Shown one piece after another: positions 62,486 through 62,701 of a DNA stretch of 64,000 bases; the stretch's first letter is position 1; the number at the start of each line of letters is the position of its first letter. Both the position numbers and the translations under genes were made by a program. Origin of the DNA: Escherichia coli. GTDB taxonomy: Bacteria; Pseudomonadota; Gammaproteobacteria; Enterobacterales; Enterobacteriaceae. A model generated the notes under the pieces. That model was given only the letters and a program-made list of their open reading frames with translations. It did not search any database and was not told the origin of the DNA. The stretch lies in assembly GCF_041886205.1 (NCBI RefSeq), contig NZ_CP169029.1; one strand, 5' to 3'.

Positions 62486-62520
62486 ATAGCTATATAATAT
62501 AGCCTGTGCTATATCTGTAT
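62486..62520. promoter_or_regulatory. Candidate MntR operator / promoter of mntS
   Basis: Perfect inverted repeat gctatat-a-atatagc (about 62489..62503) embedded in a TATAAT-like element upstream of mntS; a second related half-site follows. Confidence 0.5.
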
Positions 62521-62572
62521 GTAATGCAATCATCCCTCAAGGATCGACGGGATTAGCAAGTCAGGAGGTCTT

Positions 62573-62701
62573 ATGAATGAGTTCAAGAGGTGTATGCGCG
62601 TGTTTAGTCATTCTCCCTTTAAAGTACGGTTAATGCTGCTCTCTATGTTGTGCGATATGGTCAACAACAAACCGCAGCAAGATAAACCTTCCGATAAATA
62701 G
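62573..62701 (+). CDS. mntS: Small protein MntS (manganese homeostasis; within the RybA transcript)
   Basis: 42-codon ORF MNEFKRCMRVFSHSPFKVRLMLLSMLCDMVNNKPQQDKPSDK preceded by AGGAGG; below the size cut-off of the supplied ORF track, found by reading the sequence. Confidence 0.85.
   Translation: MNEFKRCMRVFSHSPFKVRLMLLSMLCDMVNNKPQQDKPSDK

What the first reader, a model, noticed from the sequence alone, without database searches (positions are those of the whole stretch)
62486..62701. MntS small protein with palindromic candidate MntR operator
A 42-codon ORF with strong AGGAGG RBS is missed by the ORF track (below length cut-off) and is preceded by a perfect inverted repeat gctatat-a-atatagc overlapping a -10-like element, consistent with manganese-dependent repression by the adjacent mntR product.
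Basis: partly seen in the sequence, partly recalled or inferred. Interest (0 to 1): 0.2.

Follow-up and report, generated by a model that had tools for sequence, protein, structure and literature searches.

The report
Known mntS gene and MntR operator

Summary
There is a 42-codon ORF at 62573-62701, AGGAGG lies 4 nt upstream, and a perfect 7-1-7 palindrome sits at 62489-62503 around a consensus TATAAT.

The locus is E. coli mntS/rybA, divergent from mntR. From the mntR start to the opgE start it is identical to K-12 except for two SNPs 3' of the ORF, and 5421 of 5426 complete E. coli genomes hold the region.

The ORF scores 96 bits against NCBIfam MntS (cut-off 36). It is intact in 80 of 80 Enterobacteriaceae species sampled and is under purifying selection (pN/pS 0.16).

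The MntR dyad shared with the K-12 mntH and mntP upstream regions is ATAGC-N4-GCTAT. The mntS promoter carries two such boxes 19 bp apart:
- **Box 1**, 62480-62493, has one mismatch.
- **Box 2**, 62499-62512, is perfect and is perfect in all 81 sequences examined.

They flank the -10 and cover the annotated transcription start at 62506. It is perfect in only 24 of the 79 other species in which it could be read.

Published work already shows that Mn-MntR represses mntS and that MntS inhibits the MntP exporter. Verdict: already known, low interest.

The parts
61920..62387 (-). mntR, the Mn2+-sensing DtxR-family transcription factor, transcribed divergently from mntS
   Evidence: 155-aa ORF. NCBIfam NF008273 equivalog at 269 bits against a cut-off of 153, and Pfam Fe_dep_repress plus Fe_dep_repr_C. 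RefSeq annotation. Found divergent and 180-189 nt upstream of mntS in 76 of 80 species, with a larger 432-nt gap in one more.
62464..62478 (+). Conserved block upstream of box 1. It probably contains the weak -35 of the mntS promoter (AATTAA at a 17-bp spacer, or TTAACG at 15 bp). The exact hexamer is uncertain.
   Evidence: Nearly invariant columns across 80 species. The consensus promoter scan did not call a + strand promoter here, so this assignment is inferred from spacing to the -10.
62480..62493 (.). MntR box 1, TTAGC-AATA-GCTAT, one mismatch to ATAGC-N4-GCTAT; spans -26 to -13 relative to the annotated start
   Evidence: Present at a fixed 19-bp offset from box 2 in all 80 testable sequences: 14 perfect, 61 with one mismatch, 5 with two. 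The K-12 mntP upstream region has the same TTAGC variant.
62489..62503 (.).
   Evidence: Perfect in the window and in 24 of the 79 other species where the junction could be read; position 62495 varies T/A/C/G. This outward-facing arrangement is absent from the mntH and mntP upstream regions.
62493..62498 (+). -10 hexamer TATAAT of the mntS/rybA promoter
   Evidence: Read directly from the sequence. It lies 7-8 nt upstream of the annotated rybA 5' end. Variants in other species are TACAAT and TAAAAT, and most keep A2 and T6.
62499..62512 (.). MntR box 2, ATAGC-CTGT-GCTAT, a perfect dyad; spans -7 to +7 and so covers the transcription start
   Evidence: The only perfect match in the 64 kb window, against 0.02 expected. 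Perfect in 81 of 81 sequences. The same dyad occurs in K-12 mntH and mntP.
62506..62572 (+). 5' UTR of mntS (5' part of RybA); transcription start at about 62506
   Evidence: K-12 rybA is annotated at 852725..853064, mapped through the near-identical alignment. The first ~25 nt are highly conserved and the rest is variable. No significant predicted structure (z -0.89).
62563..62568 (+). Shine-Dalgarno sequence AGGAGG, 4 nt before the ATG
   Evidence: AGGAGG lies 4-6 nt upstream of the start in 78 of 80 species.
62573..62701 (+). mntS coding sequence (42 aa plus stop)
   Evidence: NCBIfam NF033226 small_MntS equivalog at 96 bits against a cut-off of 36. RefSeq annotation. Intact 41-43 aa ORF in 80 of 80 species. 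pN/pS is 0.16 in frame against 1.05 and 3.0 in the other two frames.
62700..62732 (+). Terminator-like hairpin (stem GCGGCGT/ACGCCGC, 62701-62720) that begins at the stop codon, with a weak T tail in E. coli
   Evidence: The stem sequence is invariant across genera and shows no covariation. It is followed by 7-9 T in 12 nt in most genera, but by TTCACTCCTGCT here. The consensus terminator scan does not call it. This fits the published ~205-nt shortest RybA species plus longer read-through species (PMC4361602).
62733..62845 (+). 3' extension of the longer RybA transcripts, up to the annotated 340-nt end
   Evidence: K-12 annotation. Conservation is poor from about 62724 to about 62772. One of the two SNPs against K-12 lies here, at 62735; the other is at 62898.

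Best explanation
Window 62464-62732 is the E. coli mntS (rybA) gene with its Mn2+-MntR-repressed promoter. A sigma-70 promoter (-10 TATAAT at 62493-62498, start at about 62506) is bracketed by two tandem MntR boxes of the ATAGC-N4-GCTAT type. Box 1 (62480-62493) lies between the -35 and the -10. Box 2 (62499-62512) covers the start site.

When manganese is plentiful, Mn2+-loaded MntR, encoded 185 bp away on the other strand, occupies these boxes. By inference one dimer binds each box. This blocks RNA polymerase from the -10 and +1 region. When manganese is scarce, MntR comes off and the ~205-nt mRNA is made. Its strong AGGAGG site drives translation of the 42-residue MntS.

According to published work, MntS binds and inhibits the MntP manganese exporter, so cells retain manganese. 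A hairpin starting at the stop codon ends the shortest transcript. Its poor U tail in E. coli allows read-through into longer RybA species.

Shown here: sequence identity, coding conservation, motif matches and their conservation. Taken from the literature: repression by MntR and inhibition of MntP. Inferred: two dimers and promoter occlusion.
For: Identity:
- From the mntR start to the opgE start the locus is identical to K-12 MG1655 apart from two SNPs 3' of the ORF.
- RefSeq annotates mntS, mntR and opgE under the best matches, and 5421 of 5426 complete E. coli genomes hold the region.
- NCBIfam equivalog hits for MntS and MntR.

Coding:
- 80 of 80 species have an intact 41-43 aa ORF.
- Entropy by codon position is 0.36, 0.16 and 0.72.
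- pN/pS is 0.16 in frame against at least 1.05 out of frame.
- AGGAGG is kept in 78 of 80 species.

Operator:
- I enumerated every palindromic dyad of 5-nt half-sites with spacers of 0-12. ATAGC-N4-GCTAT is the only perfect dyad present in more than one of the mntS, mntH and mntP upstream regions, and it is present in all three.
- The perfect box is unique in the 64 kb window, against 0.02 expected.
- Box 2 is perfect in 81 of 81 sequences, and box 1 keeps a fixed 19-bp offset.
- The promoter block 62462-62530 has mean entropy 0.29, against about 1.0 and 0.85 for the flanking non-coding DNA.

Function, from the literature:
- mntS transcription is repressed by MntR:Mn, and the transcripts share one 5' end and range from 205 to ~400 nt (PMC4361602, citing Waters 2011).
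- A PmntS-eGFP reporter is repressed by Mn only when MntR is present (PMC9806134).
- MntS binds and inhibits MntP (bioRxiv 10.1101/2023.06.02.543501).
Against: - No binding data for the individual boxes could be read. Waters 2011 and Patzer & Hantke 2001 are not in the held library, so the two-box register rests on motif comparison and conservation.
- Conservation alone cannot separate operator constraint from promoter constraint, because the boxes overlap the -10 and +1.
- Box 1 has a mismatch in E. coli and in most other species.
- The consensus scan found no + strand promoter here because the -35 is poor.
- The start site comes from the RefSeq annotation, not from data examined here.
Confidence: 0.9

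Rival explanations
1. One reading: a single MntR dimer binds the perfect palindrome GCTATAT-A-ATATAGC (62489-62503) centred on the -10, and this alone is the operator.
For: The palindrome is perfect, is unique in the window, and sits exactly on the -10. All of its bases except 62495 are well conserved.
Against: - Its half-sites face outward relative to the dyad found at mntH and mntP, and neither of those regions contains a GCTAT-N-ATAGC arrangement.
- The outer half-sites (TAGC at 62481-62484, GCTAT at 62508-62512), which this model leaves unexplained, are just as invariant.
- The palindrome is perfect in only 24 of the 79 other species in which the junction could be read.
Confidence: 0.07
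2. The transcript acts mainly, or additionally, as a regulatory small RNA (RybA), and the ORF is secondary.
For: - K-12 annotation carries rybA as an ncRNA of 340 nt.
- Gerstle 2012 reported TyrR-dependent effects of RybA on aroF and aroL under peroxide stress (cited in PMC11878033 and PMC4361602).
- The first ~25 nt of the 5' UTR and the 3' hairpin are conserved in sequence.
Against: - The ORF is clearly under protein-level selection.
- Published overproduction phenotypes need the protein and do not depend on Hfq (PMC4361602).
- There is no Rfam family, no significant predicted structure (z -0.89) and no covariation.
- The conserved part of the UTR overlaps box 2, so the operator explains it.
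- A dual function is not excluded.
Confidence: 0.15
3. Chance ORF and chance palindrome in an intergenic region, with no function.
For: None beyond the short length of the ORF.
Against:: a curated family hit, conservation in 80 of 80 species, a coding substitution pattern, and motif counts far above the shuffle expectation.
Confidence: 0.005

Closest known systems
E. coli K-12 mntS (b4705) within rybA (b4416), divergent from mntR (b0817)
   Same: The ORF, the 5' UTR, the promoter and both MntR boxes are identical base for base. Gene order is the same: ybiR-mntR, then mntS-opgE on the other strand.
   Different: Two SNPs, both 3' of the ORF, at window 62735 and 62898. The window comes from a non-K-12 E. 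coli; three other strains match at 100%.
MntR operator of the E. coli mntH promoter (AAACATAGC-AAAG-GCTATGTTT)
   Same: The same ATAGC-N4-GCTAT dyad, close to the regulated gene's start, and a repressed target.
   Different: mntH has one full box, while mntS has two boxes 19 bp apart. The flanks differ: ACATAGC at mntH, ATATAGC at mntS in E. coli. A few species have ACATAGC in box 2 of mntS.
MntR sites upstream of E. coli mntP (TTAGC-CAAA-GCTAT and ATAGC-TTAG-GCTAT)
   Same: Also a pair of boxes, one perfect and one the TTAGC variant, as in mntS.
   Different: The boxes are 40 bp apart and lie far upstream of the mntP coding sequence. According to the literature, MntR activates mntP rather than repressing it (PMC8632737).
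MntS-like signal peptides of SitA (Rahnella, Sodalis)
   Same: Reported to be homologous to MntS, of similar length with the PF motif, and able to bind and inhibit MntP. The linkage to mntR is reported as inherited from an ancestral mntR-sitABCD locus (bioRxiv 10.1101/2023.06.02.543501).
   Different: Here the ORF stands alone and ends after 42 codons, with no AXA cleavage motif and no mature SitA domain. I did not re-test the homology.

Membership tests
MntS small protein (NCBIfam NF033226; Pfam PF26599 in precomputed annotations) | Sequence scores above the curated cut-off of the equivalog model | tested here: met
   96 bits against a cut-off of 36, E 6e-28, covering residues 1-39. The local Pfam copy gave no hit, but all database homologues carry PF26599.
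MntS small protein (NCBIfam NF033226; Pfam PF26599 in precomputed annotations) | Protein of about 42 aa with the conserved N-terminal MNEFKRC, the HSPF motif and C27 | tested here: met
   Alignment A2. Invariant columns are M1 N2 E3 K5 R6 C7 V10 F11 H13 S14 P15 F16 V18 R19 L20 L22 K33 P34, and C27 is nearly invariant. Length is 41-43 aa in 80 species.
MntS small protein (NCBIfam NF033226; Pfam PF26599 in precomputed annotations) | Evolves as a protein-coding sequence | tested here: met
   pN/pS is 0.16 in frame against 1.05 and 3.0 in the other frames. The third codon position is the most variable.
MntS small protein (NCBIfam NF033226; Pfam PF26599 in precomputed annotations) | Lies next to and divergent from mntR | tested here: met
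   77 of 80 species, with the gap at 180-189 nt in 76 of them. The exceptions are two prophage insertions and one truncated flank.
MntS small protein (NCBIfam NF033226; Pfam PF26599 in precomputed annotations) | Binds and inhibits the MntP exporter; causes Mn sensitivity when overproduced | not testable with these tools
   Published for the identical K-12 protein (PMC4361602; bioRxiv 10.1101/2023.06.02.543501).
E. coli-type MntR operator (MntR box) | Inverted repeat ATAGC-N4-GCTAT as found at the mntH and mntP upstream regions | tested here: met
   Box 2 is perfect and box 1 has one mismatch. This is the only palindromic dyad shared by the three MntR-target regions.
   This arrangement is absent from the mntH and mntP upstream regions, and its innermost pair is not conserved (perfect in 24 of 79 other species).
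E. coli-type MntR operator (MntR box) | Overlaps core promoter elements of a repressed gene | tested here: met
   The boxes span -26 to -13 and -7 to +7 relative to the annotated rybA 5' end, with the -10 between them.
E. coli-type MntR operator (MntR box) | Conserved in orthologous promoters | tested here: met
   Box 2 is perfect in 81 of 81 sequences. Box 1 sits at a fixed 19-bp offset in 80 of 80 testable sequences.
E. coli-type MntR operator (MntR box) | Physical, Mn2+-dependent binding by MntR | not testable with these tools
   Only reporter-level evidence could be read (PMC9806134). The primary binding papers are not held.
Structured regulatory sRNA (RybA) | Conserved secondary structure supported by covariation, or membership of a curated RNA family | tested here: not met
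   No Rfam match at E<=1. Fold z-score is -0.89. None of the 7 hairpin pairs shows a compensatory change.
Rho-independent terminator | GC-rich hairpin followed directly by a U run | tested here: inconclusive
   The hairpin is present and invariant. The tail is T-rich in most genera but weak in E. coli, and the consensus scan does not call it.

The most novel reading that the evidence does not exclude
Four half-sites in a row (TTAGC, GCTAT, ATAGC, GCTAT) create three overlapping palindromes. The central, outward-facing one, which carries the -10, might have a use of its own. It could offer an alternative MntR binding register that tunes cooperativity. It could also be a recombination target: in two Citrobacter genomes a P2-family prophage junction falls exactly inside it. 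If so, phage integration would rewire manganese control of mntS by removing box 1 and separating mntS from mntR.
Probability: 0.07. Interest if true: 0.3.

Novelty: already known. Interest (0 to 1): 0.08.

Why it matters
It matters little for discovery. mntS, its repression by MntR and its action on MntP are published and already in RefSeq annotation.

The practical points are two. First, ORF tracks with a 60-aa cut-off miss functional small proteins of this kind. Second, a perfect palindrome at a promoter need not be the operator unit: here it is a by-product of two adjacent canonical boxes.

The two-box architecture, invariant across 80 species, explains why PmntS gave the only usable Mn-responsive reporter of the three promoters tested in PMC9806134.

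Tried and rejected
- **Primary papers not available.** I tried to read the papers that define the MntR sites (Waters 2011 PMC3194919, Patzer & Hantke 2001 PMC99535, and PMC4376352, an id recalled from memory for Dambach 2015). None is held. A full-text search for the mntH box sequence found nothing relevant. I therefore derived the operator register from the K-12 mntH and mntP upstream sequences.
- **Local Pfam scan of MntS:** no hit. The family exists only in the precomputed annotations (PF26599).
- **Rfam scan of 62300-63000 at E<=1:** nothing, so RybA has no curated RNA family.
- **Consensus promoter and terminator scan:** it called neither the + strand mntS promoter nor the post-ORF hairpin. 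Both were assigned from annotation, sequence and conservation.
- **RNA folding of the mntS transcript:** not different from shuffles.
- **Half-site ACATAGC at 62413-62419 near the mntR start:** rejected as a third MntR site. It has no partner half and is not conserved.
- **Search of the phage collection for an attP matching the Citrobacter prophage junction:** only distant Fels-2-like integrase matches.
- **SitA signal-peptide homology:** not re-run, because it does not bear on the finding and the large searches are costly.

Full report
**Observation**

- A 42-codon ORF at 62573-62701 appears once the ORF length limit is lowered to 20 aa.
- AGGAGG sits at 62563-62568, 4 nt before the ATG.
- A perfect inverted repeat GCTATAT-A-ATATAGC lies at 62489-62503. 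It is unique in the 64 kb window even with one mismatch allowed, against 0.01 expected from shuffles.
- Its centre is a consensus TATAAT at 62493-62498.

**Identity of the locus**

From the mntR start to the opgE start, the DNA matches E. coli K-12 MG1655 with two SNPs, both 3' of the small ORF. Of 5426 complete E. coli genomes, 5421 hold the region, and RefSeq annotates mntS, mntR and opgE under the best matches.

In K-12 the ORF is mntS (b4705). It lies inside the ncRNA gene rybA (b4416) and is divergent from mntR (b0817).

The 42-aa product scores 96 bits against the NCBIfam equivalog model small_MntS (cut-off 36). The neighbouring 155-aa product scores 269 bits against the MntR equivalog (cut-off 153).

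**Is the small ORF a real, conserved gene?**

A protein search returned 136 MntS proteins, from Escherichia, Citrobacter, Salmonella, Klebsiella, Enterobacter, Kosakonia, Kluyvera, Trabulsiella and others.

A scan of one genome per species returned 80 loci.
- All 80 have an intact ATG-initiated ORF of 41-43 aa.
- Mean column entropy by codon position is 0.36, 0.16 and 0.72.
- Pooled pN/pS against the window is 0.16 in the reading frame, against 1.05 and 3.0 in the two other frames.
- AGGAGG lies 4-6 nt upstream of the start in 78 of 80.
- mntR is divergent upstream in 77 of 80, with a gap of 180-189 nt in 76 of them.

**The operator**

The papers that define MntR sites are not in the held library. 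I therefore took the two other MntR-controlled upstream regions from K-12.
- mntH contains AAACATAGC-AAAG-GCTATGTTT.
- mntP contains TTAGC-CAAA-GCTAT and ACATAGC-TTAG-GCTATAT.

I enumerated all 1024 five-base half-sites with spacers of 0-12. ATAGC-N4-GCTAT is the only perfect palindromic dyad present in more than one of the three regions, and it is present in all three.

In the window this dyad occurs perfectly once, at 62499-62512 (box 2; 0.02 expected). It occurs with one mismatch at 62480-62493 (box 1, TTAGC-AATA-GCTAT). Box 1 is the same TTAGC variant seen at mntP.

The two boxes are 19 bp apart. That is an outward-facing arrangement, and neither mntH nor mntP has it.

**Conservation of the operator**

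- The block 62462-62530 has mean entropy 0.29. The flanking non-coding DNA has about 1.0 and 0.85.
- Box 2 is perfect in 81 of 81 sequences.
- Box 1 sits at the fixed 19-bp offset in all 80 testable sequences: 14 perfect, 61 with one mismatch, 5 with two.
- The 7-1-7 palindrome is perfect in the window and in only 24 of the 79 other species where the junction could be read, because position 62495 varies. The -10 reads TATAAT, TACAAT or TAAAAT.

The outer half-sites, which a single-palindrome operator would not need, are as invariant as the inner ones.

**Promoter geometry**

The K-12 rybA annotation puts the 5' end at window 62506. That is 7-8 nt downstream of the TATAAT. Box 1 then spans -26 to -13 and box 2 spans -7 to +7.

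MntR bound at both boxes would occlude the -10 and the start site. This step is inferred.

The -35 is poor, and the consensus scan did not call the promoter.

**Transcript end**

A hairpin (GCGGCGT/ACGCCGC, 62701-62720) starts at the last base of the stop codon. Its sequence is invariant across genera and shows no covariation.

Most genera follow it with 7-9 T in the next 12 nt. E. coli has TTCACTCCTGCT. This fits the published pattern of a ~205-nt shortest RNA plus longer species with a common 5' end (PMC4361602).

No Rfam family matches. The transcript's predicted fold does not differ from shuffles.

**Mechanism from the literature**

- mntS is repressed by MntR:Mn, and the phenotypes need the protein rather than the RNA or Hfq (PMC4361602, citing Waters 2011).
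- A PmntS-eGFP reporter is repressed by Mn only when MntR is present (PMC9806134).
- MntS binds and inhibits the MntP exporter, self-associates in the presence of Mn, and is proposed to descend from the signal peptide of a SitA encoded next to mntR (bioRxiv 10.1101/2023.06.02.543501).
- A separate sRNA role for RybA in aromatic amino-acid gene control has been reported (Gerstle 2012, cited in PMC11878033). My data do not exclude it.

**Verdict**

- Everything of substance is already known and annotated.
- Interest is low.

Noticed in passing
L025 709-2400 (Citrobacter sp. R56) and L011 (C. amalonaticus AUH_CA_2023_1), corresponding to window ~62480-62495: In two Citrobacter genomes mntR is not upstream of mntS. 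Instead a P2/Fels-2-like prophage end lies there, with a CI-like repressor of 193 aa and an integrase of 346 aa. The junction falls inside the mntS promoter. It replaces MntR box 1 but keeps TATAAT, box 2 and mntS. This suggests the operator region serves as a phage attachment site, and it gives a natural box-1 deletion.
   Followed up: partly
window 62822-62972: The opgE promoter-like site (TTGACC, 17 nt, TATCTT at 62822-62850) and the ~120-nt leader before the opgE ATG (62973) are very strongly conserved across genera for non-coding DNA. The leader includes an invariant stem ACGCCA/TGGCGT followed by TTT just upstream of the start codon. There is no Rfam hit and no covariation. It could be a leader or attenuator element.
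   Followed up: partly
window 62701-62720: The hairpin after mntS is invariant in sequence across about 80 species, loop included, with no compensatory changes. That is unusual for a plain terminator stem and hints at a sequence-specific role such as a processing or protection site or a protein-binding site.
   Followed up: partly
window 62439-62447 and 62405-62411: Two short invariant blocks lie in the mntR-proximal half of the intergenic region. CATTGTAAA reads TACAAT on the minus strand, so it is a candidate mntR -10 about 50 nt upstream of the mntR ATG. GGTGACGC is the other. Neither overlaps the MntR boxes. A second minus-strand promoter-like site (ATTACA, 18 nt, TATATT at 62525-62496) does overlap them, so mntR autoregulation is conceivable.
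   Followed up: no
L034 ~2070-2320 (Leclercia adecarboxylata NCTC13032): An insertion of about 250 bp sits between mntR and box 1 of the mntS promoter, making the intergenic gap 432 nt instead of ~185. Both boxes and the -10 are retained. The nature of the insert was not examined.
   Followed up: no
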